Shown: in pieces, positions 1,734 through 58,758 of the stretch
Position numbering within the stretch: position 1 is the stretch's first letter
Layout: each line of letters starts with the position of its first letter
Source: Eledone cirrhosa
Taxonomy: Eukaryota
DNA: 64,000 bases
Assembly: GCA_964016885.1 (NCBI GenBank)
Contig: OZ024750.1
Location: 52,080,001-52,144,000, forward strand
Direction: 5' to 3'
The notes under the pieces: generated by a model
The model's input: the letters and a program-made list of their open reading frames with translations, nothing else
Told to the model about the DNA's origin: nothing
The model's database searches: none
Position numbers and translations under genes: made by a program

Positions 1734-1805
<72 letters not shown>

Positions 1806-5765: not shown

Positions 5766-5805
<40 letters not shown>

Positions 5806-30700: not shown

Positions 30701-31188
30701 GGCAGGCCCCTACGTAGTCCCAGCGTGCATCTAGGATACCATTCCAGTCCCCCACTAATAGCAAGGAGCGGGACGTCCCCAGAAAAGTCTCCAGACGATG
30801 GAAGAAGTCCGGCCGCATTGGCCCGAAAGGGCCGCATTGGCCCGAAAGGGCCGTAGACGGCTACCAACCTAAACGCTCCGCCTTCACCACTGCTAAGGTC
30901 CAGAACCACTAGTCGACCCTCCGGGTTCAAATGTACCGTCTATGTTGCGAGACCCAGATGTTTTTGCAGCAGAACGACAACCCCACCCCCACCTCCGGGC
31001 TGACAGAGAGATGCGTGCATCTCAAAGTCATCAAAGGTGGGGGCCAGCTGTCGCACGTTGCTGATCTGGGCCTCGCAAATAACCATCACATCTATACGTT
31101 GTGACCTGAGCTCATTTAGAAGCATTGCTTGCTTCCAAGTTGAGCCCAGGCCACGAGCATTTAGACAGCCTACTCTTAGCATAGCCAT
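27733..31188 (-). pseudogene. Tx1-like ORF2 (APE endonuclease, RT, C-terminal zinc motif), disrupted
   Basis: LNARGL, GDWNG, YLDKFLV, YSDHKLV, KSPGLDGLPYE, FRPITLLN, LDQSKAFDRVDH, RQGCPLS, AYADDV, GGLG, CPRC...HALVHC. Several stops and frameshifts, including a 19-bp tandem duplication at 30811-30848. Confidence 0.92.
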
Positions 31189-31379
31189 TTTGGTGGTGAA
31201 GAGAAAAGGCACTTACCTCTCTGCGTCCCGGGTATCGGGCTGCACAATTTCCATGAGGGTTGGGGGATGGGTTGTTGGGTGGAGTGGTGGTTTGTGGAAG
31301 TGTAGGGGCATCAGTGTGTTGTGTGGTTGGAATGTTTGGAATTGTGTGGGTGTTTGGGGAGGGGGTGGGGTAGTTTTTT

Positions 31380-32979
31380 AGGAGGACGCAGTTAATGGGC
31401 CAGACTCAAGGGGGGACCACGTCCTCTTTAAAGTTTAGTGTTTTATATGTGTCCTCTGGGGCCTTAATCATTTTGAGGTGGGGGTAATCCCCTGCCTGGG
31501 TGAAGTTAAGCCCTTGGGTTTTTATCAAATTGTTGTTGCACACAATGTTTAACAGTATTTTTATTTTTTGTGTTTATGTTTTTGTGTGGTGTTTTTTGTT
31601 TGCTGTTGTTGTTTGCTCTTTTGTGTTGGTGTCAGTGTTATGTTTTGGGAAGGGGTTGTTTTCATTTGTGTGTCTGAGGTGTGTTTTCTTTTTCTTTGTT
31701 TTGATTGTGTGGAAGTGCTCCTCCTCGTCTGACGACGAAATAGGGTCATCTTCCGTGTTGGAGGGGAGGGGTAGATTTTCGGGTTGTGTTTGCGGTGCGG
31801 GTGTTTTGGAAATTGTTTTTTTTTTAGTGGGGGATGGATTGGACATTGTTTTGTTTTGGTTTGAGCTGTGGTTGTTGTTTTTGTAGTGGTGGTTGTGGTG
31901 ATTGTGTTGGTTGTGCAGTTGTTGGTGGTGTAGGCAGGATTGGGGTTTTCTTATTAAGTTGAGGACAGACAGCCCTCAGGTGACCTCTGGTTCCACAGAG
32001 GTAACACGAGGGCCGCCTACCCTCAACGGTAATGTTGATAGAAGTTTGATCATCCAGTATGACGCGTTCAGGGATCTGGGCGATCCTTTCGGGCCTCATT
32101 TGAACTACAAGTTCGAGGCTCGTTCCACTGAATGCGTCACCCGATGCCTTTCCCATGGATATTAGTGTGTCATCATCTAGGTCCAGGAAACCTGTCAATA
32201 CCCACCATATGTCCATAATCGGCAGGATGGTGTGGATTTTTATTTTTTGTGTCCTTCTACCCATGTACGTAGAGTAGAAGGTGTATGCGGTGGATGTGAT
32301 TGGTTTGAAGGACAGTTTCACTGCTGTGTCCCTGTCCTTCATGAGAATGGATAGACTCCCGTAGAGTCTATCCTTCTGAATGAATGTGATGTCGTTCATG
32401 ACGTCTTTTAAAACCAGTTCTATCTCACTCTGTGATGGTTGAGCTGGTTTTTTGCTTTTGTTTGAGACTGTCCTAAACATGACAGTGTTTAGGAGTCTCT
32501 GGCTTTTTAGTTCCGGGGGGGAGTGGATCGAAAATGATCCATTTTCCCCGTACATTATGTATTTTTTGGCATCTGCCAGTAGCTCATTCGCTTATATCTA
32601 CTGGCAGATAGTCGAGGGTTTTCCTTGCCGTCTGGACGAAGGAGACCTTTTCCTTGTGCGTGTTGCTGTTGTAGTTGGTGGTGTTGTTGTTATCATTGTT
32701 GTTGTTATCACAGTTATTGGTCTTGTTGTTGTTGTTATTGTTATTGTTGTTGGTGTTGTTTTCGTCCGTAGCATTGTTGTTGTTGTTGTTGTTGCTGGTG
32801 CTGCTGGTTGTTTGGTTTGTTGCCATGGCAACGTCAAGTTGTCGGTCAGCAGATGGAGAAAATCCTTCCTCTTGCTGACCTTTGTCTTTGACATCTGCTA
32901 CTATGACAGTGGCAGGGGGAAGCTGTAAGCATATCTTCCCCTTTCCTCCTTCGAATTTTGGTGAAGAAGCTTCAGCCAT
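31380..32979 (-). pseudogene. Tx1-like ORF1 (gag-like, one CCHC knuckle), disrupted
   Basis: GRRPSCYLCGTRGHLRAVCP; Asn-rich (AAC)n tract near the N-terminus; Pro/Thr/Lys-rich C-terminus. Confidence 0.8.
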
Positions 32980-33234: not shown

Positions 33235-33337
<103 letters not shown>

Positions 33338-34430
33338 ATGAAGTGTAAGGTGAAGTTACTGTAGGTTCACCCAGGTGAGCACTCGACCTTTAGTGGCGAG
33401 GTGTAGAGCTAAACAGAGTGCAATATGATAAAATGTGCCCTGGTTTACTTGACAGGAAACCTGTACAATATGGAGTATAGCACATACCAAAAATATACAA
33501 GACATCAACGATAATCTAACATACATAAACAACCTGGTTAAGACAGACCTCAAGATCGATGATAGGACGCAACCCTACAGCTCTTTGACACCCAGGATCT
33601 CAATTAAGGTCCATAAACATGACTTTCAGATTACGCTATCGCTTATAGCACCCTCCAAATCAGACTTAGGTATACTTAGTAAATCTATCATTGACCGGAT
33701 AATACCAGAACGATGAAATAGGACAAAACTCAGCCTGTGGTCCTGTACTAGAGAGGTTATTGACTGGTTCTCCAGCATTGACACCAAGTCAGAAGTTCGA
33801 TTCGTCCAACTGGTCATGGCGAACTTATATTACTCAATATTCCTAGTCATCTAGCCTCACTAGAAAGGAAGTTGACATCATCTTAGTTGCTAGAAAAACA
33901 CTAGAATTCGACGGTAAATTATGGGAGAGACAAAATAGATCACATAGCTTTGACATTACAATGGAGTCGACCGATTCCGCCCAAATTACGGATGTTCTCG
34001 GCTTGTACCTCCTAAGTAAACTAATGGACGAAATCCCTAGCATAGGCGGAGGACTGTACAGAGACGGCGCTCTGCTCATGGCCCGCGGACTTAATAATAG
34101 CCAAATAGAAATATTACATAAACGAAACAGATACGTGTTTAAGACCCAAGCCTGGCGGTAGAAATAGAATGCAGCAATAGGACAGTGAATTTCTTAGACG
34201 TGACATTAGAATTAGACGCAGGTTTGTAGTACCCATACCATAAACCTAATGAGAACTTAAAGTATGTTAACAGACACTCCAACCACCCTAGGAACACTAT
34301 TAACTCTCTAGTGAAGAGTGTTTCTAACAGATTGTCCACCCTGTCCGCTGATAGATCTATCTTCAATCAACACGCAAAATACTACAACTCCGCACTAGAT
34401 AAGGCTGGATATAAAGATAAGATCACCTAC

Positions 34431-37400
34431 ACTAGAGTAACTACCACACAAGGACCACCCCAAGATCACCTACAACGACTAGACCAGACTAGAGTAACTA
34501 CCACACAAGGACCACCCCAAGCTGACCTACAACAACTAGACCAGACTAGAGTAACTACCACACAAGGACCACCCCAAGATCACCTACAACGACTAGACCA
34601 GACTAGAGTAACTACCACACAAGGACCACCCCAAGATCACCTACAACGACTAGACCAGACGAGAGTAACTACCACACAAGGACCACCCCAAGATCAACTA
34701 CAACGACTAGAGCAGACTAGAGTAACTACCAGACAAGGACCACCCCAAGCCGACCTACAACAACTAGACCAGACTACAGTAAGTACCACGCAAGGACAAC
34801 CCCAAGCTGACCTACAACGACTAGACCAGACTAGAGTAACTACCACACAAGGACCACCCAAGCTGACCTACAAAGACTAGACCAGACTAGAGTTACTACC
34901 ACACAAGGACCACCCCAAGCTGACCTACAACGACTAGAGTAGACTAGAGTAACTACCACGTAAGGACCAGTCCAACATCACCTACAACGACTAGACCAGA
35001 CTAGAGTAACTACCAGACAAGGACCACCCCAAGCCGACCTACAACAGCTAGACCAGACTAGAGTAAGTAGCACACAAGGACCACCCCAAGTTCACCTACA
35101 ACGACTAGACCAGACTAGAGTAACTAGCACACAAGGACCACCCCAAGCTGACCTACAACGGCTAGACCAGACTAGAGTAACTACCACGTAAGGACCACCC
35201 AAGCTGACCTACAACGGCTAGACCAGACTAGAGTAACTACCACGTAAGGACCACCCCAAGTTCACCTACAACGACTAGACCAGACTAGAGTAACTACCAC
35301 ACAAGGACCACCCAAGCTGACCTACAACGGCTAGACCAGACTAGAGTAACTACCACGTAAGGACCACCCCAAGTTCACCTACAACGACTAGACCAGACTA
35401 GAGTAACTACCACACAAGGACCACCCCAAGCTGACCTACAACGAGTAGACCAGACTAGAGTAACTAGCACACAAGGACCACCCCAAGCTGACCTACAACG
35501 ACTAGACCAGACTAGAGTAACTACCACACAAGGACCACCCCAAGCTGACCTACAACGAGTAGACCAGACTAGAGTAACTAGCACACAAGGACCACCCCAA
35601 GCTGACCTACAACGACTAGACCAGACTAGAGTAACTACCACACAAGGACCACCCCAAGCTGACCTACAACGAGTAGACCAGACTAGAGTAACTAGCACAC
35701 AAGGACCACCCCAAGCTGACCTACAACAACTAGACTAGACTAGAGTAACTACCACACAAGGACCACCCCAAGCTGACCTACAACGACTAGACCAGACTAG
35801 AGTAACTACCACACAAGGACCACCCCAAGCTGACCTACAACGACTAGACCAGACTAGAGTAACTACCACACAAGGACCACCCAAGCTGACCTACAACGAC
35901 TAGACCAGACTAGAGTAACTACCACACAAGGACCACCCCAAGCTGACCTACAACGAGTAGACCAGACTAGAGTAACTGCCACACAAGGACCACCCCAAGC
36001 TGACCTACAACGACTAGACCAGACTAGAGTAACTACCACACAAGGACCACCCCAAGCTGACCTACAACGAGTAGACCAGACTAGAGTAACTAGCACACAA
36101 GGACCACCCCAAGCTGACCTACAACGACTAGACCAGACTAGAGTAACTACCACACAAGGACCACCCCAAGCTGACCTACAACGAGTAGACCAGACTAGAG
36201 TAACTAGCACACAAGGACCACCCCAAGCTGACCTACAACAACTAGACTAGACTAGAGTAACTACCACACAAGGACCACCCCAAGCTGACCTACAACGACT
36301 AGACCAGACTAGAGTAACTACCACACAAGGACCACCCCAAGCTGACCTACAACGACTAGACCAGACTAGAGTAACTACCACACAAGGACCACCCAAGCTG
36401 ACCTACAACGACTAGACCAGACTAGAGTAACTACCACACAAGGACCACCCAAGCTGACCTACAACAGCTAGACCAGACTAGAGTAACTACCACACAAGGA
36501 CCACCCAAGCTGACCTACAACAACTACACTAAACTAGAGTAACTACCACGCAAAGACCACCCCAAGCTGACCTACAACGACTAGACTAGACTAGAGTAAC
36601 TACCCCCACAAGGACCACCCCAAGATCACCTACAACAACTACACCAGACTAGAGTAACTACCACACAAGGACCACCCCAAGATCACCTACAACGACTACA
36701 CCAGACTAGAGTAACTACCACACAAGGACCACCCCAAGCTGACCTACAACGACTAGACTAGACTAGAGTAACTACCACACAAGGACCACCCCAAGATCAC
36801 CTACAACAACTAGACCAGACTAGAGTAACTACCACACAAGGACCACCCCAAGCTGACCTACAACGACTAGACCAGACTAGAGTAACTACCACACAAGGAC
36901 CACCCCAAGATCACCTACAACAACTAGACTAGACTAGAGTAACTACCACACAAGGACCACCCCAACCTGACCTACAACAACTAGACTAGACTAGAGTAAC
37001 TACCACACAAGGACCACCCCAACCTGACCTACAACAACTAGACCAGACTAGAGTAACTACCACACAAGGACCACCCCAACCTGACCTACAACAACTAGAC
37101 CAGACTAGAGTAACTACCACACAAGGACCACCCCAACCTGACCTACAACAACTAGACTAGACTAGAGTAACTACCACACAAGGACCACCCCAACCTGACC
37201 TACAACGACTAGACCAGACTAGAGTAACTACCACACAAGGACCACCCCAAGATCACCTACAACAACTAGACCAGACTACAGTAAGTACCACGCAAGGACC
37301 ACCCCAAGCTGACCTACAACGACTAGACCAGACTAGAGTAACTACCACACAAGGACCACCCCAAGCTGACCTACAACAACTAGACCAGACTAGAGTAACT

Positions 37401-40400
37401 ACCACACAAGGACCACCCCAAGCTGACCTACAACAACTAGACTAGACTAGAGTAACTACCACACAAGGACCACCCCAACCTGACCTACAACAACTAGACT
37501 AGACTAGAGTAACTACCACACAAGGACCACCCCAAGCTGACCTACAATGACTAGACTAGACTAGAGTAACTACCACACAAGGACCACCCCAACCTGACCT
37601 ACAACGACTAGACCAGACTAGAGTAACTACCACACAAGGACCACCCCAACCTGACCTACAACAACTAGACCAGACTAGAGTAACTACCACACAAGGACCA
37701 CCCCAAGCTGACCTACAACGACTACACCAGACTAGAGTAACTACCACACAAGGACCACCCCAACCTGACCTACAACGACTAGACCAGACTAGAGTAACTA
37801 CCACACAAGGACCACCCCAAGCTGACCTACAACGACTAGACCAGACTAGAGTAACTACCACACAAGGACCACCCCAAGATCACCTACAACAACTAGACCA
37901 GACTAGAGTAACTACCACACAAGGACCACCCCAAGATCACCTACAACGACTAGACCAGACTGGAGTAACTACCACGTAAGGACCACCCCAAGATCACCTA
38001 CAACGACTAGACTAGACTAGAGTAACTACCACGTAAGGACCACCCCAAGCTGACCTACAACGACTAGACCAGACTAGAGTAACTACCACACAAGGACCAC
38101 CCCAAGCTGACCTACAACGACTAGACCAGACTAGAGTAACTACCACACAAGGACCACCCCAAGATCACCTACAACGACTAGACTAGACTAGAGTAACTAC
38201 CACACAAGGACCACCCCAAGCTGAGCTACAACGACTAGACTAGACTAGAGTAACTACCACACAAGGACCACCCCAAGCTGACCTACAACGACTACACCAG
38301 ACTAGAGTAACTACCACACAAGGACCACCCCAAGATCACCTACAACGACTACACCAGACTAGAGTAACTACCACACAAGGACCACCCAAGCTGACCTACA
38401 ACGACTAGACTAGACTAGAGTAACTACCACGTAAGGACCACCCCAAGCTGACCTACAACGACTAGACCAGACTAGAGTAACTACCACACAAGGACCACCC
38501 CAAGATCACCTACAACGACTACACCAGACTAGAGTAACTACCACACAAGGACCACCCAAGCTGACCTACAACGACTAGACTAGACTAGAGTAACTACCAC
38601 GTAAGGACCACCCCAAGATCACCTACAACGACTAGACCAGACTAGAGTAACTACCACACAAGGACCACCCCAAGCTGACCTACAACGACTAGACCAGACT
38701 AGAGTAACTACCACACAAGGACCACCCCAAGCTGACCTACAACGACTAGACTAGACTAGAGTAACTACCACGTAAGGACCACCCCAAGCTGACCTACAAC
38801 GACTAGACCAGACTAGAGTAACTACCACACAAGGACCACCCAAGCTGACCTACAACGACTACACCAGACTAGAGTAACTACCACACAAGGACCACCCCAA
38901 CATCACCTACAACGAGTAGACCAGACTAGAGTAACTACCACACAAGGACCACCCCAACATCACCTACAACGACTACACCAGACTAGAGTAACTACCACAC
39001 AAGGACCACCCCAAGATCACCTACAACGACTAGAGCAGACTAGAGTAACTACCACACAAGGACCACCCCAACATCACCTACAACGAGTAGACCAGACTAG
39101 AGTAACTACCACACAAGGACCACCCCAACATCACCTACAACGACTACACCAGACTAGAGTAACTACCACACAAGGACCACCCCAAGATCACCTACAACGA
39201 CTAGAGCAGACTAGAGTAACTACCACACAAGGACCACCCCAACATCACCTACAACGACTACACCAGACTAGAGTAACTACCACACAAGGACCACCCCAAC
39301 ATCACCTACAACGACTACACCAGACTAGAGTAACTACCACACAAGGACCACCCCAAGATCACCTACAACGACTAGAGCAGACTAGAGTAACTACCACACA
39401 AGGACCACCCCAACATCACCTACAACGAGTAGACCAGACTAGAGTAACTACCACACAAGGACCACCCCAACATCACCTACAACGACTACACCAGACTAGA
39501 GTAACTACCACACAAGGACCACCCCAACATCACCTACAACGAGTAGACCAGACTAGAGTAACTACCACACAAGGACCACCCCAACATCACCTACAACGAC
39601 TACACCAGACTAGAGTAACTACCACACAAGGACCACCCCAAGCTGACCTACAACGACTAGAGCAGACTAGAGTAACTACCACACAAGGACCACCCCAAGA
39701 TCACCTACAACGACTAGACCAGACTAGAGTAACTACCACACAAGGACCACCCCAAGCTGACCTACAACAACTAGACCAGACTAGAGTAACTACCACACAA
39801 GGACCACCCCAAGCTGACCTACAACGACTAGAGCAGACTAGAGTAACTACCACACAAGGACCACCCCAAGATCACCTACAACGACTAGAGCAGACTAGAG
39901 TAACTACCACACAAGGACCACCCCAAGCTGACCTACAACAACTAGACCAGACTAGAGTAACTACCACACAAGGACCACCCCAAGCTGACCTACAACGACT
40001 AGACCAGACTAGAGTAACTACCACACAAGGACCACCCCAAGCTGACCTACAACGACTAGACCAGACTAGAGTAACTACCACACAAGGACCACCCCAAGCT
40101 GACCTACAACGACTACACCAGACTAGAGTAACTACCACACAAGGACCACCCCAAGCTGACCTACAACGACTAGAGCAGACTAGAGTAACTACCACACAAG
40201 GACCACCCCAAGATCACCTACAACGACTAGAGCAGACTAGAGTAACTACCACACAAGGACCACCCCAAGCTGACCTACAACAACTAGACCAGACTAGAGT
40301 AACTACCACACAAGGACCACCCCAAGCTGACCTACAACGACTAGACCAGACTAGAGTAACTACCACACAAGGACCACCCCAAGCTGACCTACAACGACTA

Positions 40401-43400
40401 CACCAGACTAGAGTAACTACCACACAAGGACCACCCCAAGCTGACCTACAACGACTACACCAGACTAGAGTAACTACCACACAAGGACCACCCCAAGATC
40501 ACCTACAACAACTAGACCAGACTAGAGTAACTACCACACAAGGACCACCCCAAGCTGACCTACAACGACTAGACCAGACTAGAGTAACTACCACACAAGG
40601 ACCACCCCAACATCACCTACAACGACTACACCAGACTAGAGTAACTACCACACAAGGACCACCCCAAGATCACCTACAACGACTACACCAGACTAGAGTA
40701 ACTACCACACAAGGACCACCCCAAGATCACCTACAACGACTAGAGCAGACTAGAGTAACTACCACACAAGGACCACCCCAAGATCACCTACAACGACTAG
40801 AGCAGACTAGAGTAACTACCACACAAGGACCACCCCAAGATCACCTACAACAACTAGACCAGACTAGAGTAACTACCACACAAGGGCCACCCCAAGCTGA
40901 CCTACAACAACTAGACCAGACTAGAGTAACTACCACACAAGGACCACCCCAAGCTGACCTACAACAACTAGACCAGACTAGAGTAACTACCACACAAGGG
41001 CCACCCCAAGCTGACCTACAACAACTAGACCAGACTAGAGTAACTACCACACAAGGGCCACCCCAAGCTGACCTACAACAACTACACCAGACTAGAGTAA
41101 CTACCACACAAGGACCACCCCAAGCTGACCTACAACAACTAGACCAGACTAGAGTAACTACCACACAAGGACCACCCCAAGCTGACCTACAATGACTAGA
41201 CCAGACTAGAGTAACTACCACACAAGGACCACCCCAAGATCACCTACAACGACTAGAGCAGACTAGAGTAACTACCACACAAGGACCACCCCAAGCTGAC
41301 CTACAACAACTAGACCAGACTAGAGTAACTACCACACAAGGGCCACCCCAAGCTGACCTACAACAACTAGACCAGACTAGAGTAACTACCACACAAGGAC
41401 CACCCCAAGCTGACCTACAACGACTACACCAGACTAGAGTAACTACCACACAAGGACCACCCCAAGATCACCTACAACGACTAGAGCAGACTAGAGTAAC
41501 TACCACACAAGGACCACCCCAAGCTGACCTACAACAACTAGACCAGACTAGAGTAACTACCACACAAGGACCACCCCAAGCTGACCTACAACGACTAGAC
41601 CAGACTAGAGTAACTACCACACAAGGACCACCCCAAGCTGACCTACAACAACTAGACCAGACTAGAGTAACTACCACACAAGGACCACCCCAAGCTGACC
41701 TACAACGACTAGACCAGACTAGAGTAACTACCACACAAGGACCACCCCAAGCTGACCTACAATGACTAGACCAGACTAGAGTAACTACCCCCACAAGGAC
41801 CACCCCAAGCTGACCTACAACAACTAGACCAGACTAGAGTAACTACCACACAAGGACCACCCCAAGCTGACCTACAACAACTAGACCAGACTAGAGTAAC
41901 TACCACACAAGGACCACCCCAAGCTGACCTACAACAACTAGACCAGACTAGAGTAACTACCACACAAGGACCACCCCAAGATCACCTACAACGACTAGAC
42001 CAGACTAGAGTAACTACCACACAAGGACCACCCCAAGCTGACCTACAACAACTAGACCAGACTAGAGTAACTACCACACAAGGACCACCCAAGCTGACCT
42101 ACAACGACTAGACTAGACTAGAGTAACTACCACACAAGGACCACCCCAAGCTGACCTACAACGACTAGACCAGACTAGAGTAACTACCACACAAGGACCA
42201 CCCCAAGCTGACCTACAACGACTAGACCAGACTAGAGTAACTACCACACAAGGACCACCCCAACATCACCTACAACGACTAGAGCAGACTAGAGTAACTA
42301 CCACACAAGGACCACCCCAACATCACCTACAACGACTACACCAGACTAGAGTAACTACCACACAAGGACCACCCCAACATCACCTACAACGAGTAGACCA
42401 GACTAGAGTAACTACCACACAAGGACCACCCCAACATCACCTACAACGACTACACCAGACTAGAGTAACTACCACACAAGGACCACCCCAAGATCACCTA
42501 CAACGAGTAGACCAGACTAGAGTAACTACCACACAAGGACCACCCCAACATCACCTACAACGAGTAGACCAGACTAGAGTAACTACCACACAAGGACCAC
42601 CCCAACATCACCTACAACGACTACACCAGACTAGAGTAACTACCACACAAGGACCACCCCAAGCTGACCTACAACGACTAGACTAGACTAGAGTAACTAC
42701 CACACAAGGACCACCCCAAGATCACCTACAACGACTACACCAGACTAGAGTAACTACCACACAAGGACCACCCCAAGCTGACCTACAACGACTAGACCAG
42801 ACTAGAGTAACTACCACACAAGGACCACCCCAAGATCACCTACAACGACTACACCAGACTAGAGTAACTACCACACAAGGACCACCCCAAGATCACCTAC
42901 AACGACTAGACCAGACTAGAGTAACTACCACACAAGGACCACCCCAAGATCACCTACAACGACTAGACTAGACTAGAGTAACTACCCCCACAAGGACCAC
43001 CCCAAGATCACCTACAACGACTACACCAGACTAGAGTAACTACCACACAAGGACCACCCCAAGCTGACCTACAACGACTACACCAGACTAGAGTAACTAC
43101 CACACAAGGACCACCCCAAGATCACCTACAACGACTAGACTAGACTAGAGTAACTACCCACACAAGGACCACCCCAAGCTGACCTACAACGACTAGACCA
43201 GACTAGAGTAACTACCACACAAGGACCACCCCAAGCTGACCTACAACGACTAGACTAGACTAGAGTAACTACCACACAAGGACCACCCCAAGATCACCTA
43301 CAACGACTAGACCAGACTAGAGTAACTACCACACAAGGACCACCCCAAGATCACCTACAACGACTAGACCAGACTAGAGTAACTACCACACAAGGACCAC

Positions 43401-46400
43401 CCCAAGATCACCTACAACGACTAGACCAGACTAGAGTAACTACCACACAAGGACCACCCCAAGATCACCTACAACGACTAGACCAGACTAGAGTAACTAC
43501 CACACAAGGACCACCCCAAGATCACCCACAACAACTAGACTAGACTAGAGTAACTACCACACAAGGACCACCCCAAGCTGACCTACAACGACTAGACTAG
43601 ACTAGAGTAACTACCACACAAGGACCACCCCAAGCTGACCTACAACGACTAGACTAGACTAGAGTAACTACCACACAAGGACCACCCCAAGCTGACCTAC
43701 AACGAGTAGACCAGACTAGAGTAACTACCACACAAGGACCACCCCAAGATCACCCACAACAACTAGACTAGACTAGAGTAACTACCACACAAGGACCACC
43801 CCAAGCTGACCTACAACGACTAGACTAGACTAGAGTAACTACCACACAAGGACCACCCCAAGCTGACCTACAACGACTAGACCAGACTAGAGTAACTACC
43901 ACACAAGGACCACCCCAAGCTGACCTACAACAACTAGACCAGACTAGAGTAACTACCACACAAGGACCACCCCAAGCTGACCTACAACAACTAGACCAGA
44001 CTAGAGTAACTACCACACAAGGACCACCCCAAGCTGACCTACAACAACTAGACCAGACTAGAGTAACTACCACACAAGGACCACCCCAAGCTGACCTACA
44101 ACAACTAGACCAGACTAGAGTAACTACCACACAAGGACCACCCCAAGCTGACCTACAACAACTAGACCAGACTAGAGTAACTACCACACAAGGACCACCC
44201 CAAGCTGACCTACAACGACTAGACCAGACTAGAGTAACTACCACACAAGGACCACCCCAAGCTGACCTACAACAACTAGACCAGACTAGAGTAACTACCA
44301 CACAAGGACCACCCCAAGATCACCTACAACAACTAGACCAGACTAGAGTAACTACCACACAAGGACCACCCAAGCTGACCTACAACAACTACACTAAACT
44401 AGAGTAACTACCACGCAAAGACCACCCCAAGCTGACCTACAACGACTAGACTAGACTAGAGTAACTACCCCCACAAGGACCACCCCAAGATCACCTACAA
44501 CAACTACACCAGACTAGAGTAACTACCACACAAGGACCACCCCAAGATCACCTACAACGACTACACCAGACTAGAGTAACTACCACACAAGGACCACCCC
44601 AAGCTGACCTACAACGACTAGACTAGACTAGAGTAACTACCACACAAGGACCACCCCAAGATCACCTACAACAACTAGACCAGACTAGAGTAACTACCAC
44701 ACAAGGACCACCCCAAGCTGACCTACAACGACTAGACCAGACTAGAGTAACTACCACACAAGGACCACCCCAAGATCACCTACAACAACTAGACTAGACT
44801 AGAGTAACTACCACACAAGGACCACCCCAACCTGACCTACAACAACTAGACTAGACTAGAGTAACTACCACACAAGGACCACCCCAACCTGACCTACAAC
44901 AACTAGACCAGACTAGAGTAACTACCACACAAGGACCACCCCAACCTGACCTACAACAACTAGACCAGACTAGAGTAACTACCACACAAGGACCACCCCA
45001 ACCTGACCTACAACAACTAGACTAGACTAGAGTAACTACCACACAAGGACCACCCCAACCTGACCTACAACGACTAGACCAGACTAGAGTAACTACCACA
45101 CAAGGACCACCCCAAGATCACCTACAACAACTAGACCAGACTACAGTAAGTACCACGCAAGGACCACCCCAAGCTGACCTACAACGACTAGACCAGACTA
45201 GAGTAACTACCACACAAGGACCACCCCAAGCTGACCTACAACAACTAGACCAGACTAGAGTAACTACCACACAAGGACCACCCCAAGCTGACCTACAACA
45301 ACTAGACTAGACTAGAGTAACTACCACACAAGGACCACCCCAACCTGACCTACAACAACTAGACTAGACTAGAGTAACTACCACACAAGGACCACCCCAA
45401 GCTGACCTACAATGACTAGACTAGACTAGAGTAACTACCACACAAGGACCACCCCAACCTGACCTACAACGACTAGACCAGACTAGAGTAACTACCACAC
45501 AAGGACCACCCCAACCTGACCTACAACAACTAGACCAGACTAGAGTAACTACCACACAAGGACCACCCCAAGCTGACCTACAACGACTACACCAGACTAG
45601 AGTAACTACCACACAAGGACCACCCCAACCTGACCTACAACGACTAGACCAGACTAGAGTAACTACCACACAAGGACCACCCCAAGCTGACCTACAACGA
45701 CTAGACCAGACTAGAGTAACTACCACACAAGGACCACCCCAAGATCACCTACAACAACTAGACCAGACTAGAGTAACTACCACACAAGGACCACCCCAAG
45801 ATCACCTACAACGACTAGACCAGACTGGAGTAACTACCACGTAAGGACCACCCCAAGATCACCTACAACGACTAGACTAGACTAGAGTAACTACCACGTA
45901 AGGACCACCCCAAGCTGACCTACAACGACTAGACCAGACTAGAGTAACTACCACACAAGGACCACCCCAAGCTGACCTACAACGACTAGACCAGACTAGA
46001 GTAACTACCACACAAGGACCACCCCAAGATCACCTACAACGACTAGACTAGACTAGAGTAACTACCACACAAGGACCACCCCAAGCTGAGCTACAACGAC
46101 TAGACTAGACTAGAGTAACTACCACACAAGGACCACCCCAAGCTGACCTACAACGACTACACCAGACTAGAGTAACTACCACACAAGGACCACCCCAAGA
46201 TCACCTACAACGACTACACCAGACTAGAGTAACTACCACACAAGGACCACCCAAGCTGACCTACAACGACTAGACTAGACTAGAGTAACTACCACGTAAG
46301 GACCACCCCAAGCTGACCTACAACGACTAGACCAGACTAGAGTAACTACCACACAAGGACCACCCCAAGATCACCTACAACGACTACACCAGACTAGAGT

Positions 46401-49400
46401 AACTACCACACAAGGACCACCCAAGCTGACCTACAACGACTAGACTAGACTAGAGTAACTACCACGTAAGGACCACCCCAAGATCACCTACAACGACTAG
46501 ACCAGACTAGAGTAACTACCACACAAGGACCACCCCAAGCTGACCTACAACGACTAGACCAGACTAGAGTAACTACCACACAAGGACCACCCCAAGCTGA
46601 CCTACAACGACTAGACTAGACTAGAGTAACTACCACGTAAGGACCACCCCAAGCTGACCTACAACGACTAGACCAGACTAGAGTAACTACCACACAAGGA
46701 CCACCCAAGCTGACCTACAACGACTACACCAGACTAGAGTAACTACCACACAAGGACCACCCCAACATCACCTACAACGAGTAGACCAGACTAGAGTAAC
46801 TACCACACAAGGACCACCCCAACATCACCTACAACGACTACACCAGACTAGAGTAACTACCACACAAGGACCACCCCAAGATCACCTACAACGACTAGAG
46901 CAGACTAGAGTAACTACCACACAAGGACCACCCCAACATCACCTACAACGAGTAGACCAGACTAGAGTAACTACCACACAAGGACCACCCCAACATCACC
47001 TACAACGACTACACCAGACTAGAGTAACTACCACACAAGGACCACCCCAAGATCACCTACAACGACTAGAGCAGACTAGAGTAACTACCACACAAGGACC
47101 ACCCCAACATCACCTACAACGACTACACCAGACTAGAGTAACTACCACACAAGGACCACCCCAACATCACCTACAACGACTACACCAGACTAGAGTAACT
47201 ACCACACAAGGACCACCCCAAGATCACCTACAACGACTAGAGCAGACTAGAGTAACTACCACACAAGGACCACCCCAACATCACCTACAACGAGTAGACC
47301 AGACTAGAGTAACTACCACACAAGGACCACCCCAACATCACCTACAACGACTACACCAGACTAGAGTAACTACCACACAAGGACCACCCCAACATCACCT
47401 ACAACGAGTAGACCAGACTAGAGTAACTACCACACAAGGACCACCCCAACATCACCTACAACGACTACACCAGACTAGAGTAACTACCACACAAGGACCA
47501 CCCCAAGCTGACCTACAACGACTAGAGCAGACTAGAGTAACTACCACACAAGGACCACCCCAAGATCACCTACAACGACTAGACCAGACTAGAGTAACTA
47601 CCACACAAGGACCACCCCAAGCTGACCTACAACAACTAGACCAGACTAGAGTAACTACCACACAAGGACCACCCCAAGCTGACCTACAACGACTAGAGCA
47701 GACTAGAGTAACTACCACACAAGGACCACCCCAAGATCACCTACAACGACTAGAGCAGACTAGAGTAACTACCACACAAGGACCACCCCAAGCTGACCTA
47801 CAACAACTAGACCAGACTAGAGTAACTACCACACAAGGACCACCCCAAGCTGACCTACAACGACTAGACCAGACTAGAGTAACTACCACACAAGGACCAC
47901 CCCAAGCTGACCTACAACGACTAGACCAGACTAGAGTAACTACCACACAAGGACCACCCCAAGCTGACCTACAACGACTACACCAGACTAGAGTAACTAC
48001 CACACAAGGACCACCCCAAGCTGACCTACAACGACTAGAGCAGACTAGAGTAACTACCACACAAGGACCACCCCAAGATCACCTACAACGACTAGAGCAG
48101 ACTAGAGTAACTACCACACAAGGACCACCCCAAGCTGACCTACAACAACTAGACCAGACTAGAGTAACTACCACACAAGGACCACCCCAAGCTGACCTAC
48201 AACGACTAGACCAGACTAGAGTAACTACCACACAAGGACCACCCCAAGCTGACCTACAACGACTACACCAGACTAGAGTAACTACCACACAAGGACCACC
48301 CCAAGCTGACCTACAACGACTACACCAGACTAGAGTAACTACCACACAAGGACCACCCCAAGATCACCTACAACAACTAGACCAGACTAGAGTAACTACC
48401 ACACAAGGACCACCCCAAGCTGACCTACAACGACTAGACCAGACTAGAGTAACTACCACACAAGGACCACCCCAACATCACCTACAACGACTACACCAGA
48501 CTAGAGTAACTACCACACAAGGACCACCCCAAGATCACCTACAACGACTACACCAGACTAGAGTAACTACCACACAAGGACCACCCCAAGATCACCTACA
48601 ACGACTAGAGCAGACTAGAGTAACTACCACACAAGGACCACCCCAAGATCACCTACAACGACTAGAGCAGACTAGAGTAACTACCACACAAGGACCACCC
48701 CAAGATCACCTACAACAACTAGACCAGACTAGAGTAACTACCACACAAGGGCCACCCCAAGCTGACCTACAACAACTAGACCAGACTAGAGTAACTACCA
48801 CACAAGGACCACCCCAAGCTGACCTACAACAACTAGACCAGACTAGAGTAACTACCACACAAGGGCCACCCCAAGCTGACCTACAACAACTAGACCAGAC
48901 TAGAGTAACTACCACACAAGGGCCACCCCAAGCTGACCTACAACAACTACACCAGACTAGAGTAACTACCACACAAGGACCACCCCAAGCTGACCTACAA
49001 CAACTAGACCAGACTAGAGTAACTACCACACAAGGACCACCCCAAGCTGACCTACAATGACTAGACCAGACTAGAGTAACTACCACACAAGGACCACCCC
49101 AAGATCACCTACAACGACTAGAGCAGACTAGAGTAACTACCACACAAGGACCACCCCAAGCTGACCTACAACAACTAGACCAGACTAGAGTAACTACCAC
49201 ACAAGGGCCACCCCAAGCTGACCTACAACAACTAGACCAGACTAGAGTAACTACCACACAAGGACCACCCCAAGCTGACCTACAACGACTACACCAGACT
49301 AGAGTAACTACCACACAAGGACCACCCCAAGATCACCTACAACGACTAGAGCAGACTAGAGTAACTACCACACAAGGACCACCCCAAGCTGACCTACAAC

Positions 49401-52400
49401 AACTAGACCAGACTAGAGTAACTACCACACAAGGACCACCCCAAGCTGACCTACAACGACTAGACCAGACTAGAGTAACTACCACACAAGGACCACCCCA
49501 AGCTGACCTACAACAACTAGACCAGACTAGAGTAACTACCACACAAGGACCACCCCAAGCTGACCTACAACGACTAGACCAGACTAGAGTAACTACCACA
49601 CAAGGACCACCCCAAGCTGACCTACAATGACTAGACCAGACTAGAGTAACTACCCCCACAAGGACCACCCCAAGCTGACCTACAACAACTAGACCAGACT
49701 AGAGTAACTACCACACAAGGACCACCCCAAGCTGACCTACAACAACTAGACCAGACTAGAGTAACTACCACACAAGGACCACCCCAAGCTGACCTACAAC
49801 AACTAGACCAGACTAGAGTAACTACCACACAAGGACCACCCCAAGATCACCTACAACGACTAGACCAGACTAGAGTAACTACCACACAAGGACCACCCCA
49901 AGCTGACCTACAACAACTAGACCAGACTAGAGTAACTACCACACAAGGACCACCCAAGCTGACCTACAACGACTAGACTAGACTAGAGTAACTACCACAC
50001 AAGGACCACCCCAAGCTGACCTACAACGACTAGACCAGACTAGAGTAACTACCACACAAGGACCACCCCAAGCTGACCTACAACGACTAGACCAGACTAG
50101 AGTAACTACCACACAAGGACCACCCCAACATCACCTACAACGACTAGAGCAGACTAGAGTAACTACCACACAAGGACCACCCCCAACATCACCTACAACG
50201 ACTACACCAGACTAGAGTAACTACCACACAAGGACCACCCCAACATCACCTACAACGAGTAGACCAGACTAGAGTAACTACCACACAAGGACCACCCCAA
50301 CATCACCTACAACGACTACACCAGACTAGAGTAACTACCACACAAGGACCACCCCAAGATCACCTACAACGAGTAGACCAGACTAGAGTAACTACCACAC
50401 AAGGACCACCCCAACATCACCTACAACGAGTAGACCAGACTAGAGTAACTACCACACAAGGACCACCCCAACATCACCTACAACGACTACACCAGACTAG
50501 AGTAACTACCACACAAGGACCACCCCAAGTGACCTACAACGACTAGACTAGACTAGAGTAACTACCACACAAGGACCACCCCAAGATCACCTACAACGAC
50601 TACACCAGACTAGAGTAACTACCACACAAGGACCACCCCAAGCTGACCTACAACGACTAGACCAGACTAGAGTAACTACCACACAAGGACCACCCCAAGA
50701 TCACCTACAACGACTACACCAGACTAGAGTAACTACCACACAAGGACCACCCCAAGATCACCTACAACGACTAGACCAGACTAGAGTAACTACCACACAA
50801 GGACCACCCCAAGATCACCTACAACGACTAGACTAGACTAGAGTAACTACCCCCACAAGGACCACCCCAAGATCACCTACAACGACTACACCAGACTAGA
50901 GTAACTACCACACAAGGACCACCCCAAGCTGACCTACAACGACTACACCAGACTAGAGTAACTACCACACAAGGACCACCCCAAGATCACCTACAACGAC
51001 TAGACTAGACTAGAGTAACTACCCACACAAGGACCACCCCAAGCTGACCTACAACGACTAGACCAGACTAGAGTAACTACCACACAAGGACCACCCCAAG
51101 CTGACCTACAACGACTAGACTAGACTAGAGTAACTACCACACAAGGACCACCCCAAGATCACCTACAACGACTAGACCAGACTAGAGTAACTACCACACA
51201 AGGACCACCCCAAGCTGACCTACAACGACTAGACCAGACTAGAGTAACTACCACACAAGGACCACCCCAAGATCACCTACAACGACTAGACCAGACTAGA
51301 GTAACTACCACACAAGGACCACCCCAAGATCACCTACAACGACTAGACCAGACTAGAGTAACTACCACACAAGGACCACCCCAAGATCACCCACAACAAC
51401 TAGACTAGACTAGAGTAACTACCACACAAGGACCACCCCAAGCTGACCTACAACGACTAGACTAGACTAGAGTAACTACCACACAAGGACCACCCCAAGC
51501 TGACCTACAACGACTAGACTAGACTAGAGTAACTACCACACAAGGACCACCCCAAGCTGACCTACAACGAGTAGACCAGACTAGAGTAACTACCACACAA
51601 GGACCACCCCAAGATCACCCACAACAACTAGACTAGACTAGAGTAACTACCACACAAGGACCACCCCAAGCTGACCTACAACGACTAGACTAGACTAGAG
51701 TAACTACCACACAAGGACCACCCCAAGCTGACCTACAACGACTAGACCAGACTAGAGTAACTACCACACAAGGACCACCCCAAGCTGACCTACAACAACT
51801 AGACCAGACTAGAGTAACTACCACACAAGGACCACCCCAAGCTGACCTACAACAACTAGACCAGACTAGAGTAACTACCACACAAGGACCACCCCAAGCT
51901 GACCTACAACAACTAGACCAGACTAGAGTAACTACCACACAAGGACCACCCCAAGCTGACCTACAACAACTAGACCAGACTAGAGTAACTACCACACAAG
52001 GACCACCCCAAGCTGACCTACAACAACTAGACCAGACTAGAGTAACTACCACACAAGGACCACCCCAAGCTGACCTACAACGACTAGACCAGACTAGAGT
52101 AACTACCACACAAGGACCACCCCAAGCTGACCTACAACAACTAGACCAGACTAGAGTAACTACCACACAAGGACCACCCCAAGATCACCTACAACAACTA
52201 GACCAGACTAGAGTAACTACCACACAAGGACCACCCCAAGCTGACCTACAACGACTAGACCAGACTAGAGTAACTACCACACAAGGACCACCCCAAGATC
52301 ACCTACAACGACTACACCAGACTAGAGTAACTACCACACAAGGACCACCACAAGATCACCTACAACGACTACACCAGACTAGAGTAACTACCACACAAGG

Positions 52401-55400
52401 ACCACCCCAAGCTGACCTACAACGACTAGACTAAACTAGAGTAACTACCACACAAGGACCACCCCAAGATCACCTACAACGACTAGACCAGACTAGAGTA
52501 ACTACCACACAAGGACCACCCCAAGCTGACCTACAACAACTAGACCAGACTAGAGTAACTACCACACAAGGACCACCCCAAGCTGACCTACAACAACTAG
52601 AGCAGACTAGAGTAACTACCACACAAGGACCACCCCAAGATCACCTACAACAACTAGACCAGACTAGAGTAACTACCACACAAGGACCACCCCAAGCTGA
52701 CCTACAACAACTAGACCAGACTAGAGTAACTACCACACAAGGACCACCCCAAGATCACCTACAACGACTAGACAAGACTAGAGTAACTACCACACAAGGA
52801 CCACCCCAAGATCACCTACAACGAGTAGACCAGACTAGAGTAACTACCACACAAGGACCACCCCAAGATCACCTACAACGAGTAGACCAGACTAGAGTAA
52901 CTACCACACAAGGACCACCCCAAGATCACCTACAACGACTAGACCAGACTAGAGTAACTACCAGACAAGGACCACCCCAAGCTGACCTACAACGACTACA
53001 CCAGACTAGAGTAACTACCACACAAGGACCACCCCAAGATCACCTACAACGACTAGACCAGACTAGAGTAACTACCACACAAGGACCACCCCAAGCTGAC
53101 CTACAACGACTACACCAGACTAGAGTAACTAGCACACAAGGACCACCCCAAGCTGACCTACAACGACTAGACCAGACTAGAGTAACTACCACGTAAGGAC
53201 CACCCCAAGCTGACCTACAACAACTAGACCAGACTAGAGTAACTACCACACAAGGACCACCCCAAGCTGACCTACAACGGCTAGACCAGACTAGAGTAAC
53301 TACCACACAAGGACCACCCCAAGATCACCTACAACGACTAGACCAGACTAGAGTAACTACCACACAAGGACCACCCCAAGATCACCTACAACGACTAGAC
53401 AAGACTAGAGTAACTACCACACAAGGACCACCCCAAGATCACCTACAACGAGTAGACCAGACTAGAGTAACTACCACACAAGGACCACCCCAAGATCAAC
53501 TACAACGAGTAGACCAGACTAGAGTAACTACCACACAAGGACCACCCCAAGCCGACCTACAACAGCTAGACCAGACTAGAGTAAGTAGCACGCAAGGACC
53601 ACCCCAAGATCACCTACAACGACTAGACAAGACTAGAGTAACTACCACACAAGGACCACCCCAAGATCACCTACAACGAGTAGACCAGACTAGAGTAACT
53701 ACCACACAAGGACCACCCCAAGATCAACTACAACGAGTAGACCAGACTAGAGTAACTACCACACAAGGACCACCCCAAGATCACCTACAACGACTAGACA
53801 AGACTAGAGTAACTACCACACAAGGACCACCCCAAGATCACCTACAACGAGTAGACCAGACTAGAGTAACTACCACACAAGGACCACCCCAAGATCACCT
53901 ACAACGAGTAGACCAGACTAGAGTAACTACCACACAAGGACCACCCCAAGATCACCTACAACGACTAGACCAGACTAGAGTAACTACCACACAAGGACCA
54001 CCCCAAGCTGACCTACAACGACTAGACCAGACTAGAGTAACTACCACACAAGGACCACCCCAAGCTGACCTACAACGACTAGACCAGACTAGAGTAACTA
54101 CCACACAAGGACCACCCCAAGATCACCTACAACGAGTAGACCAGACTAGAGTAACTACCACACAAGGACCACCCCAAGCTGACCTACAACGAGTAGACCA
54201 GACTAGAGTAACTACCACACAAGGACCACCCCAAGCTGACCTACAACGACTAGACCAGACTAGAGTAACTACCACACAAGGACCACCCCAAGATCACCTA
54301 CAACGAGTAGACCAGACTAGAGTAACTACCACACAAGGACCACCCCAAGATCACCTACAACGAGTAGACCAGACTAGAGTAACTACCACACAAGGACCAC
54401 CCCAAGCTGACCTACAACGACTAGACCAGACTAGAGTAACTACCACACAAGGACCACCCCAAGCTGACCTACAACGACTACACCAGACTAGAGTAACTAC
54501 CACACAAGGACCACCCCAAGCTGACCTACAACAACTAGACTAGACTAGAGTAACTACCACACAAGGACCACCCCAAGCTGACCTACAACGACTAGACCAG
54601 ACTAGAGTAACTACCACACAAGGACCACCCCAAGCTGACCTACAACGACTAGACCAGACTAGAGTAACTACCACACAAGGACCACCCCAAGCTGACCTAC
54701 AACGACTAGACCAGACTAGAGTAACTACCACACAAGGACCACCCCAAGCTGACCTACAACAACTAGACCAGACTAGAGTAACTACCACACAAGGACCACC
54801 CCAAGCTGACCTACAACGACTAGACCAGACTAGAGTAACTACCACACAAGGACCACCCCAAGATCACCTACAACGGCTAGACCAGACTAGAGTAACTAGC
54901 ACACAAGAACCACCCCAAGCTGACCTACAACGACTAGACCAGACTAGAGTAACTACCACACAAGGACCACCCCAAGATCACCTACAACGGCTAGACCAGA
55001 CTAGAGTAACTAGCACACAAGAACCACCCCAAGCTGACCTACAACGACTAGACCAGACTAGAGTAACTACCACACAAGGACCAGCCCAAGCTGACCTACA
55101 ACGACTAGACCAGACTAGAGTAACTACCACACAAGGACCACCCCAAGATCACCTACAACGGCTAGACCAGACTAGAGTAACTAGCACACAAGAACCACCC
55201 CAAGCTGACCTACAACGACTAGACCAGACTAGAGTAACTACCACACAAGGACCACCCCAAGCTGACCTACAACGACTAGACCAGACTAGAGTAACTACCA
55301 CACAAGGACCACCCCAAGATCACCTATAACGGCTAGACCAGACTAGAGTAACTACCACACAAGGACCACCCCAAGATCACCTACAACGACTAGACCTGAC

Positions 55401-55892
55401 TAGAGTAACTACCACACAAGGACCACCCCAAGCTGACCTACAACGACTAGACCAGACTAGAGTAACTAGCACACAAGAACCACCCCAAGCTGACCTACAA
55501 CGACTAGACCAGACTAGAGTAACTACCACACAAGGACCACCCCAAGCTGACCTACAACGACTAGACCAGACTAGAGTAACTACCACACAAGGACCACCCC
55601 AAGATCACCTACAACGGCTAGACCAGACTAGAGTAACTAGCACACAAGAACCACTCCAAGATCACTTACAACGACTAGACCAGACTAGAGTAACTACCAC
55701 ACAAGGACCACCCCAAGCTGACCTACAACGACTAGACCAGACTAGAGTAACTAGCACACAAGGACCACCCCAAGATCACTTACAACGACTAGACCAGACT
55801 AGAGTAACTAGCACACAAGGACCACCCCAAGATCACTTACAACGACTAGACCAGACTAGAGTAACTACCACGCAAGGACCGCCCAAGCCGAC
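34431..55892 (+). repeat. 57-bp tandem array, ~376 units (ACTAGAGTAACTACCACACAAGGACCACCCCAAGCTGACCTACAACGACTAGACCAG)
   Basis: Unit counted directly; copy number is length/57. One frame reads TRVTTTQGPPQADLQRLDQ. Confidence 0.97.
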
Positions 55893-56123
55893 AGGCCAGG
55901 CAATGACACATACCACTGCCAAGGAGGTAAAGCCATGCACTTCTGCTACCCTAACGACTCGAAGCCTAGCACACAAATACGTTTTAATAGGGACCAAAGA
56001 TTAAATGATACAAACCAAACCAGAGCACCTAAGACAAATACCCCTGCCCACAACACACTCCCACACACACATCAAACCACAGCAACCGCACTAATGTCGT
56101 AGGATCCGAAGCAGATCCGTGAC

Positions 56124-56909
56124 ATGGTACAACGCCCTGTACTCAATACACGTTGCTACCAATGTACCAGTAATATTCTTCAGTACCCTCGACCAATCCT
56201 TTCCACACACACACACACACACCACAAGCTCTGTAACAGACATACGGTAAAATTCTCCTTCTCCACAACACCTAATCTAGCCGACACCATAGCATACACT
56301 AATAGGATCAAAATAAGGAAACACAAGCAAGCACCCCCCCCCCTCCCTCAAACAACTACTAGCACAGTCCAAAACAACACCGCACAGATAATACATAACA
56401 ACGCTCAACTACATGCTAACTCCAACCAAAATGAGACCATCCGGCATAACAACAACTCAATAGCCCCCAGGTGCAACTGTAAAAAGCTGGAGGAATGCCC
56501 ACTAAAAGTGGAGTGCCCCATCAGGAACATTGTGTACCAGTGCGATGTCATGGCTGGGTGCTATGAATACACCTATATAGGCACGACCTCGACAAACTTT
56601 AAGGAACGGCTTTACAACCACAGACTTAAAAACTCCCAAACCAGACTGGTAGATTTGATCTGGGACCTCAAGGATAGGAACCTGAAATACCAGATCAAAT
56701 GTTCAGTTAGGAGACGCGTGGCCCAACTTCCCACCGAAGGAAGCCACTGCAGATTGATCCTGGCAGAATCGGTCGAGATCATTAAATTAAAATCGGCCAT
56801 AAATTTGAGATTGGAAATCCTCCTAAACTGCAGACGCACGAAAAAGGATTCATTCTCCGCCATGGTATTCGCATATAAACCGCGGACAGACCAAAACTTA
56901 ACCACCTGA
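56124..56909 (+). pseudogene. Linker plus GIY-YIG endonuclease of the split Naiad element
   Basis: NRHTVKFSFSTTPNL, CNCKKLEECPL, IVYQC...YIGTTSTNFKERLYNH, IWDLK. Confidence 0.85.
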
Positions 56910-57289
56910 ACTTTGACATCGATAGTCACAACATCCTACTAACTACCACAATTATTATCATATCTCAACTTTATCATAGTCCTCATTGCCACTGTTACAT
57001 TCATTACAATTGTAGTTCTTGTTAATATTATATTGTATTCTTTATCATGTCCCTCATTATTAAACATATCACCATGTAGTCACCACTCTCACCCACACCA
57101 ATACGTACCCAACACGCAAACCACCAGCATCCTACACATTACCACAATTAGTTTCATCACTGCCATTTGTATCACCAATTTCATCACCATTATTACATAC
57201 GGGGTCGATAAAATAAAGTACCAGTAATGAACTGGGTAATTGCTGACCTTGTGCCAAAAGTAGAAACAATTATTACATACATATATATA

Positions 57290-57483
57290 AGGGCGGTGGA
57301 TTGGCAGTAACGGTAGAGGGTCGGACGCCATGCTTTGACGTATAGAGTTACGGCCCTTGCCATTCTGAGTTCAAATCCCGCCGAGGTTGACTTTGCCTTT
57401 CATCCTTACGGGGTCGATAAAATAAAGTACCAGTAATGCACTGGGTAATTGCTGGCCTTGTGCCAAAAGTAGAAACAATTATT
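57290..57483 (+). mobile_element. tRNA-derived SINE with a Meta-like central domain; further copies at 57197-57274 (3' part), 58570-58758 and 24600-24650
   Basis: B box GAGTTCAAATCCC, central GACTTTGCCTTTCATCCTTACGGGGTCGATAAAATAAAGTACC, (ATT) end. Confidence 0.8.
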
Positions 57484-57678
57484 ACATACATATATTACCT
57501 ATACATACAATATACCTATATATATACATACAATATACCTATATATATACATACAATATACCTATATATATACATACATATATACCTATATATATATATA
57601 CATACAATATACCTATATATATACATACATATATACCTATATATATATATATACATACAATATACCTATATATATATA

Positions 57679-58573: not shown

Positions 58574-58758
58574 GAATTGGCAGTATCTGTAGAGGGTCGG
58601 ACACCATGCTTTCCAACATAGTTACGTCCCTCTACGGTCCGATTTCAAATCCCGTCGAGGTTAAATTTACCTTTCATCCTTACGGAGTCGATAAAATAAA
58701 GTACCAGTAATGTACTGGAATAATTGCTGGCCTTGTGCCTAAAGTAGAAACAATTATT
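58570..58758 (+). mobile_element. SINE copy (family of 57290-57483)
   Basis: Collinear similarity along its whole length. Confidence 0.8.

What the first reader, a model, noticed from the sequence alone, without database searches (positions are those of the whole stretch)
34405..55900. 21.5-kb satellite born in frame inside a PLE RT-endonuclease linker
Seen: the RT thumb (...ALDKAGYKDKITY) runs directly into 57-bp units, in frame for the first ~7 units (TRVTTTQGPPQDHLQRLDQ), and the element resumes after the last unit. The unit contains AAGATCACCTAC, identical to the KITY-coding flank, so it derives from the element itself. The same linker is an Asn-rich low-complexity tract in the 1803-5768 element. 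Interior units carry TAG codons and 1-bp deletions, and the array is far more homogeneous than the decayed host. Inference: a short coding minisatellite expanded into satellite DNA after the element died.
Basis: partly seen in the sequence, partly recalled or inferred. Interest (0 to 1): 0.75.

Follow-up and report, generated by a model that had tools for sequence, protein, structure and literature searches.

The report
Minisatellite born inside dead Penelope element
This 21.5-kb run of a 57-base repeat occurs at one place in the genome and is built from two pieces of the broken jumping gene it sits in; it likely began with a small deletion and a copying slip and likely grew by recombination, a known and ordinary way for such repeats to arise.

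Summary
The array is real in the assembly: 376 full 57-bp units plus a partial one (34431-55892) in the RT-endonuclease linker of a broken Penelope-like element with Hydra-clade motifs. It is single-locus: 249 of 249 and 369 of 369 genome-wide pattern hits are in this window. The unit comes from the element, but not from a coding minisatellite. None of 50 sister places carries the repeat. In sisters its two halves occur once, usually 61-77 bp apart. The unit is the linker stretch between two imperfect 8-bp direct repeats, minus that spacer, and both sides of the repeat survive as the two main unit types. The open frame is half native, half shifted, and shows no sign of selection. A 7,865-bp block is duplicated at about 99.95% identity, so over a third of the length is very recent or an assembly duplicate. 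This is a clear example of a known process (TE-derived minisatellite, Haber-Louis type). The scan noted similar births elsewhere in this genome (e1-9565391, e1-10331077). Open: the order of the founding steps, and whether the element's own reverse transcriptase made the first dimer.

The parts
33292..33335 (.). (TA)n tract at the 5' edge of the host element
   Evidence: TRF; sister loci align from about here
33337..34430 (+). Broken RT part of the host Penelope-like element (5'-incomplete; 3 frames pieces, 2 stops, YRDG in place of YRDD)
   Evidence: tblastn with the window's other element; sisters have GLYRDD
34419..34430 (+). KITY-coding stretch; begins with the left imperfect direct repeat AAGATCAC; in true phase this is the start of unit 1, which lacks 14 bp
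34431..55854 (+). 376 full 57-bp units (75 distinct sequences in the segmentation); single-locus minisatellite
36468..44332 (+). First copy of the 7,865-bp (138-unit) block
44333..52197 (+). Second copy of the block; differs by two 1-bp indels and one linked two-base switch of unit type; recent duplication or assembly duplicate
55855..55892 (+). Terminal partial unit with the right imperfect repeat AAGCCGAC (55885-55892); keeps the sister-type letters at two CpG sites that most units have lost
55893..57194 (+). Rest of the host: linker, CxCx5C motif (56472), GIY-YIG-like endonuclease (YIG at 56574), 3' region

Best explanation
The array is a single-locus minisatellite built from the linker of the broken Penelope-like copy it sits in; it likely began when a deletion of about 65 bp brought two imperfect 8-bp direct repeats to 57 bp apart and the stretch between them was duplicated, and it likely grew afterwards by unequal exchange and gene conversion. 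Shown: source of the unit, missing spacer, the two flanking repeats, single locus, nested block duplications, mixing of variants among units. Inferred: the order deletion, then duplication; the repair pathway; a later 14-bp loss from unit 1; lack of function.
For: All exact and one-mismatch pattern hits are in the window (249 of 249, 369 of 369). None of 50 distinct sister places has the unit in tandem or either new junction at up to 3 mismatches, apart from one native-order match. In the 41 places with both anchors the linker is at most 131 bp. The two halves of the unit match near sisters at up to 23 of 26 and 27 of 28 bases, in the same order, 55-87 bp apart in 31 of 39 loci scored. The two main unit types match the two sides of the repeat: AAGATCAC-type 115 units, AAGCTGAC-type 201, and 3 units with the exact right-flank AAGCCGAC. 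Nested exact duplications of 1 to 138 units, all four allele combinations in 31 of 45 pairs of common variants and only 11 singleton changes in 13,566 bp point to repeated exchange. The same closest sister (L002) tops both flank searches. The mechanism is in print (PMC6947457, PMC3389668, PMC3648361; passages read).
Against: The flanking repeats match at only 5 of 8 bases (6 of 8 with the commonest unit type). No microhomology is evident at the spacer-deletion junction, and the host's own spacer is gone, so it cannot be checked. The left edge and the internal junction both end at the same base (start of the RVTTT half); the stepwise model must call this a coincidence. The trees of the two flanks did not place the host consistently (low support on the right). 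No listed read contig bridged either array-flank junction, so contiguity rests on the assembly.
Confidence: 0.62

Rival explanations
1. One break-repair event made the seed: a deletion of 76-90 bp with a templated 57-bp insertion copied from both sides of the break (theta-mediated end joining type). Later growth as in the main model.
For: Both forward junctions end at the same base, as expected if one free DNA end was joined twice. It needs one event in place of three.
Against: A chance 14-bp loss with 1 bp of microhomology next to 5-bp internal repeats also explains the left edge. Several sisters carry ordinary deletions in this linker (L018, L046, L048, L053, L058), so a separate deletion is common. 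The pathway's traits are recalled; I saw only the search listing.
Confidence: 0.22
2. The element's own telomerase-related reverse transcriptase made the first dimer at insertion by template jumps: twice forward from the same pause site and once backward across the 8-bp repeat.
For: Shared junction point beside a C-run in sisters. The terminal partial unit differs from the array majority at 3 bases and 1 indel in 39, which allows an old founding event. Penelope-like elements form tandem and inverted structures (PMC8557442, passages).
Against: 0 of 50 sister places show the same joint, so it is no recurring pause site. No stable fold in the unit or in two sister linkers (z from -0.22 to 1.30). 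The array's nested structure and shared variants cannot come from one synthesis event.
Confidence: 0.1
3. One reading: the active element carried a short in-frame coding minisatellite that later expanded.
For: Unit length is a multiple of 3, joins in frame and is stop-free; by chance about 1/3 x 1/3 x 0.55, near 6% (0.55).
Against: No sister has the unit, including the closest ones. Half of the peptide is a shifted reading. Alleles: 25 replacement, 10 silent, 4 stop, against 117, 47, 7 possible. Pattern searches would miss many copies that are 8-10% diverged, but the flank-based census does not depend on them.
Confidence: 0.04
4. Separate question: the 7,865-bp duplication is an assembly duplicate (two haplotypes or overlapping reads laid in tandem), so the true array is about 13.6 kb.
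For: Only 3 differences in 7,865 bp, two of them 1-bp indels. Word-depth ratio of unit to unique flank was 57-64 in run X1, below the 139 expected with the duplication and the 89 without.
Against: The third difference is a linked two-base switch of unit type, unlike a read error. Run X2 gave 55-124. The tool warns that contig depth is no copy number, and library type and individual are unknown.
Confidence: 0.4

Closest known systems
TE-derived minisatellites begun between short direct repeats (Haber-Louis model; Alu, B1 and MaLR cases as reviewed in PMC6947457 and counted in PMC3389668)
   Same: Unit is a piece of the host element, lies between short direct repeats, starts in one copy and grows locally.
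   Different: Here the unit also lacks an internal spacer, the repeats are imperfect and both versions persist as unit types, and the array is 238-376 units, above the usual 100-unit bound given in PMC6947457.
Maize CRM1TR / CRM4TR tandem repeats (PMC3648361)
   Same: Monomer formed by deletion within a retrotransposon; few loci; gene conversion proposed for growth and variation.
   Different: Those come from LTR-UTR parts of centromeric LTR elements with monomers mostly over 700 bp (per PMC6947457); this is 57 bp from the coding linker of a Penelope-like element, 3.15 Mb from a contig end.
Hydra clade of Penelope-like elements (PMC8557442, section 11)
   Same: C-terminal GIY-YIG-like domain, CxCx5C linker motif, DKT motif in sisters, insertion at (TA)n.
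   Different: RWK motif not found as such, no hammerhead confirmed, no tree against named clades built.
Non-LTR retrozyme arrays noted elsewhere in this genome (earlier scan notes, unchecked)
   Same: Long tandem array linked to Penelope-like elements.
   Different: Those are dispersed 311-490 bp hammerhead units; this unit is 57 bp, single-locus, with no Rfam match and no stable fold.

Membership tests
TE-derived single-locus minisatellite (Haber-Louis type) | Head-to-tail unit of tens of bases | tested here: met
   57 bp x 376.7
TE-derived single-locus minisatellite (Haber-Louis type) | Unit sequence comes from the host element | tested here: met
   Halves match near sisters at up to 23/26 and 27/28
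TE-derived single-locus minisatellite (Haber-Louis type) | Short (5-10 bp) direct repeats bound the unit | tested here: inconclusive
   AAGATCAC (34419) and AAGCCGAC (55885) share 5 of 8 bases; both sides recur as unit types
TE-derived single-locus minisatellite (Haber-Louis type) | Confined to one locus | tested here: met
   249 of 249 and 369 of 369 hits in the window
TE-derived single-locus minisatellite (Haber-Louis type) | Length varies between individuals | not testable with these tools
   One sample holds it as contigs; RAD runs do not cover the locus
Satellite DNA family | Long array (over about 100 units) | tested here: met
   238 units without, 376 with the duplicated block; bound from PMC6947457
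Satellite DNA family | Abundant or spread over several loci | tested here: not met
   One locus, 21.5 kb of 3.0 Gb
Satellite DNA family | Centromeric or heterochromatic chromatin | not testable with these tools
   Only position known: 3.15 Mb from the end of a 55.3-Mb contig
Coding repeat carried by the element family | Repeat present in sister copies | tested here: not met
   0 of 50 places
Coding repeat carried by the element family | Selection against stops and replacements | tested here: not met
   25/10/4 observed against 117/47/7 possible; 63 of 350 units with stops
Hydra-clade Penelope-like element (host) | RT followed by C-terminal GIY-YIG endonuclease | tested here: met
   Motifs and tblastn; Pfam gave no family for these pieces
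Hydra-clade Penelope-like element (host) | CxCX5C linker motif | tested here: met
   Host 56472; 28 of 58 sister loci
Hydra-clade Penelope-like element (host) | DKT in place of DKG | tested here: met
   7 sister loci with DKT(G/V)N; decayed in the host
Hydra-clade Penelope-like element (host) | RWK motif | tested here: inconclusive
   Not found; the host is 5'-incomplete and the window's other element shows only LWK
Hydra-clade Penelope-like element (host) | Insertion into (TA)n | tested here: met
   5' edge at the (TA)n tract 33292-33335; the 3' edge abuts another repeat
Hydra-clade Penelope-like element (host) | Hammerhead ribozyme in the pseudo-LTR | tested here: inconclusive
   No Rfam hammerhead in the window or 12 loci; loose pattern hits not validated
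Hydra-clade Penelope-like element (host) | Absence of CCHH motif; placement in an RT tree | not tested
   No reference sequences of the named clades were fetched
Non-LTR retrozyme array | Hammerhead in each unit, dispersed copies | tested here: not met
   No Rfam match, no stable fold, single locus

The most novel reading that the evidence does not exclude
The first dimer was written by the Penelope-like element's telomerase-related reverse transcriptase at the moment of insertion, by jumping twice from one pause site and realigning once across an 8-bp imperfect repeat. Penelope enzymes would then seed new minisatellites directly from their own coding RNA.
Probability: 0.1. Interest if true: 0.6.

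Novelty: new member of a known kind. Interest (0 to 1): 0.3.

Why it matters
The first steps of minisatellite birth are rarely visible; PMC3389668 found that known models explain only 6% of human TE-derived repeats. Here dozens of sister copies preserve the state before the repeat, so the deletion, the flanking repeats and both crossover products can be read directly. That makes it a good worked example and a likely hypervariable marker. It is not a new kind of element, not a coding repeat and not a centromere candidate on present evidence. Three paper searches (listings only) showed no report of a minisatellite from a Penelope RT-endonuclease linker, but they cover only open-access text.

Tried and rejected
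Array-free allele: an 862-bp read contig in X1 and X3 joined an intact spacer to the host's right flank. Rejected as a chimeric contig: the spacer belongs to a paralog on C4, which is 85% identical there and shares exactly one 31-base word at the switch point. RAD reads that leave the window at 34431 follow sister L014's linker, so they are paralog reads. Linker as a hotspot for tandem growth: two spaced-motif searches gave 308 of 311 and 16 of 18 hits in the window; three of the outside loci were fetched and are unrelated, and the C19 hit was judged from its listed letters only. Hairpin-driven origin: no stable fold. Variants templated from elsewhere in the unit: p = 0.08, not supported. Pfam and Rfam gave nothing for the host pieces or the unit. 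No RNA holder listed. A DNA search of the genome with three units was not scored. Trees of the flanks were too weak to name the host's subfamily.

Full report
Observation. TRF finds one array at 34431-55892, period 57, 376.7 copies. My segmentation gives 376 full units and a partial one; 350 are 57 bp, 17 are 56 bp, 9 are 58 bp, and 63 of the 350 carry an in-frame stop. The ORF 34230-34880 reads from the RT thumb through KITY into seven units. After the array the element resumes, out of its native frame, and reaches a CxCx5C motif at 56472 and YIG at 56574.

Host. The RT part is in three frame pieces with two stops and YRDG where sisters have YRDD. It starts at a (TA)n tract and lacks the 5' part of the ORF. 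The CxCx5C motif, the DKT motif in 7 sister loci and the (TA)n site fit the Hydra clade of Penelope-like elements (PMC8557442; passages and section 11 read). RWK and a hammerhead were not confirmed, Pfam gave no family, and no tree with named clades was built. The window is G000:C10:52080001-52144000, 3.15 Mb from the end of a 55.3-Mb contig.

Single locus. A 33-base unit pattern has 249 genome hits and 249 window hits; a degenerate junction pattern with one mismatch has 369 and 369. Two spaced-motif searches found no other tandem of the linker. These patterns would miss many old, diverged copies; the flank census below does not depend on them.

Sister copies. Searches with the left and right flank scored 40 of 407 and 40 of 113 candidates; I fetched 30 loci from each, giving 50 distinct sister places. 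In the 41 with both anchors the linker is at most 131 bp and not repeated; one (L019) is rearranged. TRF found no array of the unit in any, and neither new junction occurs at up to 3 mismatches; the one hit (L012) is the native order. The unit's two halves are there once each: the KITYNDQT-coding half, a spacer, then the RVTTTQGPP-coding half. Of 39 loci scored, 31 had the halves in order 55-87 bp apart, 2 had shorter gaps and 6 gave no sensible pairing; best matches were 23 of 26 and 27 of 28 bases.

Anatomy of the unit. In true phase the unit starts at AAGATCAC (34419) and ends before AAGCCGAC (55885). These share 5 of 8 bases. With the spacer removed they lie 57 bp apart. The two main unit types are the two ways of crossing over in this repeat: 115 units with the left form, 201 with the right form after a CpG change, 3 with the exact right form. 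The first unit lacks 14 bp. The terminal partial unit keeps the sister letters at two CpG sites that most units have lost; those letters survive in 14 and 3 of 238 units, mostly in the first third.

Not a coding repeat. Only RVTTTQGPP is in the native frame. The other half is read one frame off; in its native frame the majority unit has a stop where sisters have Gln. Variant alleles are 25 replacement, 10 silent and 4 stop against 117, 47 and 7 possible. A shuffled unit is stop-free in a given frame 55% of the time, so the in-frame look has a chance near 6%: not tiny, in a region with six such arrays in 104 kb. The Asn-rich tract of the other element belongs to a distant family.

Growth and age. 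Host flanks differ from near-sister majority at 35 of 425 and 57 of 722 sites, about 8%. Units differ from their majority by 3.7% (2.3% without the two dimorphic sites), neighbours are slightly more alike than distant units (4.8% against 5.9%), and singletons are 11 in 13,566 bp. Exact internal duplications span 1 to 11 units locally and 138 units once. 31 of 45 pairs of common variants show all four combinations. This points to repeated unequal exchange and conversion long after the insertion (inference). The founding date is open: the terminal partial unit differs from the majority at 3 bases and 1 indel in 39.

The large duplication. 36468-44332 and 44333-52197 differ by two 1-bp indels and one two-base type switch. 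Read contigs of one sample hold the unit at depth 609 and 703 against about 6-13 for flank pieces, so a large array exists outside the assembly, though this sample may be the assembly's source. Ratios of 57-64 and 55-124 fall around or below the 89 expected without the duplication and below the 139 expected with it; the tool warns that this depth is no copy number. No listed contig bridged either end of the array. An apparent array-free allele proved to be a chimeric contig.

Mechanism. Best model (0.62): spacer deletion, duplication between the imperfect repeats, growth by exchange, trimming of unit 1. Its weak point is that the left edge and the internal junction end at the same base. A single break-repair event with a templated insertion explains that (0.22), as would template jumps by the element's own reverse transcriptase (0.10); against the latter, 0 of 50 sister places show the joint and no stable fold was found. 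The traits of theta-mediated joining and of template jumping are recalled; I saw only search listings.

Comparison with what is known. PMC6947457 (passages) describes minisatellites starting between 5-10 bp repeats in Alu, B1 and LTR elements and growing by slippage, conversion or unequal crossing-over. PMC3389668 (abstract, passages, sections 3.3-3.4) gives 23% of human minisatellites as TE-derived and 300 of 7,276 as flanked by direct repeats. PMC3648361 (passages) proposes deletions then gene conversion for maize retrotransposon-derived repeats. Searches for a Penelope-linker case (listings only) showed none; supplements were not read. Earlier scan notes report a similar birth in a dead LINE and a genome-wide tendency to form such arrays; my 104-kb sample agrees.

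Verdict. Real, well resolved, and ordinary in kind: a new member of TE-derived single-locus minisatellites. Interest 0.3.

Noticed in passing
window 58869-62349: A second single-locus minisatellite, 28 bp x 124; all 29 exact genome hits of the consensus are here. Its source was not traced.
   Followed up: partly
L104:1699-2580, L104:7810-8226, L102:2634-4943, L102:9010-9306: Four more unrelated arrays (28, 20, 30, 35 bp units) within 20 kb of the window: six arrays in 104 kb.
   Followed up: partly
window 34431-55892: C-to-G type changes are 10 of 33 array alleles against 8 of 92 in the host flanks (p = 0.007; per C/G change p = 0.02 against flanks, 0.08 against the family). Post hoc, and counting distinct alleles inflates it; may hint at error-prone repair synthesis.
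   Followed up: partly
window 1803-5768: A younger Penelope-like element of another family with a 427-bp inverted repeat (1803-2229 and 5254-5680, 99.5% identical), DKT and CxCx5C motifs, (TA)n at both ends and one frameshift near 3650.
   Followed up: partly
window 27733-32979, minus strand: A LINE-type element with endonuclease, RT and zf-RVT matches and a candidate ORF1, split over several frames.
   Followed up: no
window 57197-57485 and 58585-58755: Several copies and fragments of one short dispersed repeat ending in a TA-rich tail; a fragment abuts the host's 3' edge.
   Followed up: no
L028:1-1023: A 48-bp array of at least 21 units lies just upstream of a sister copy.
   Followed up: no
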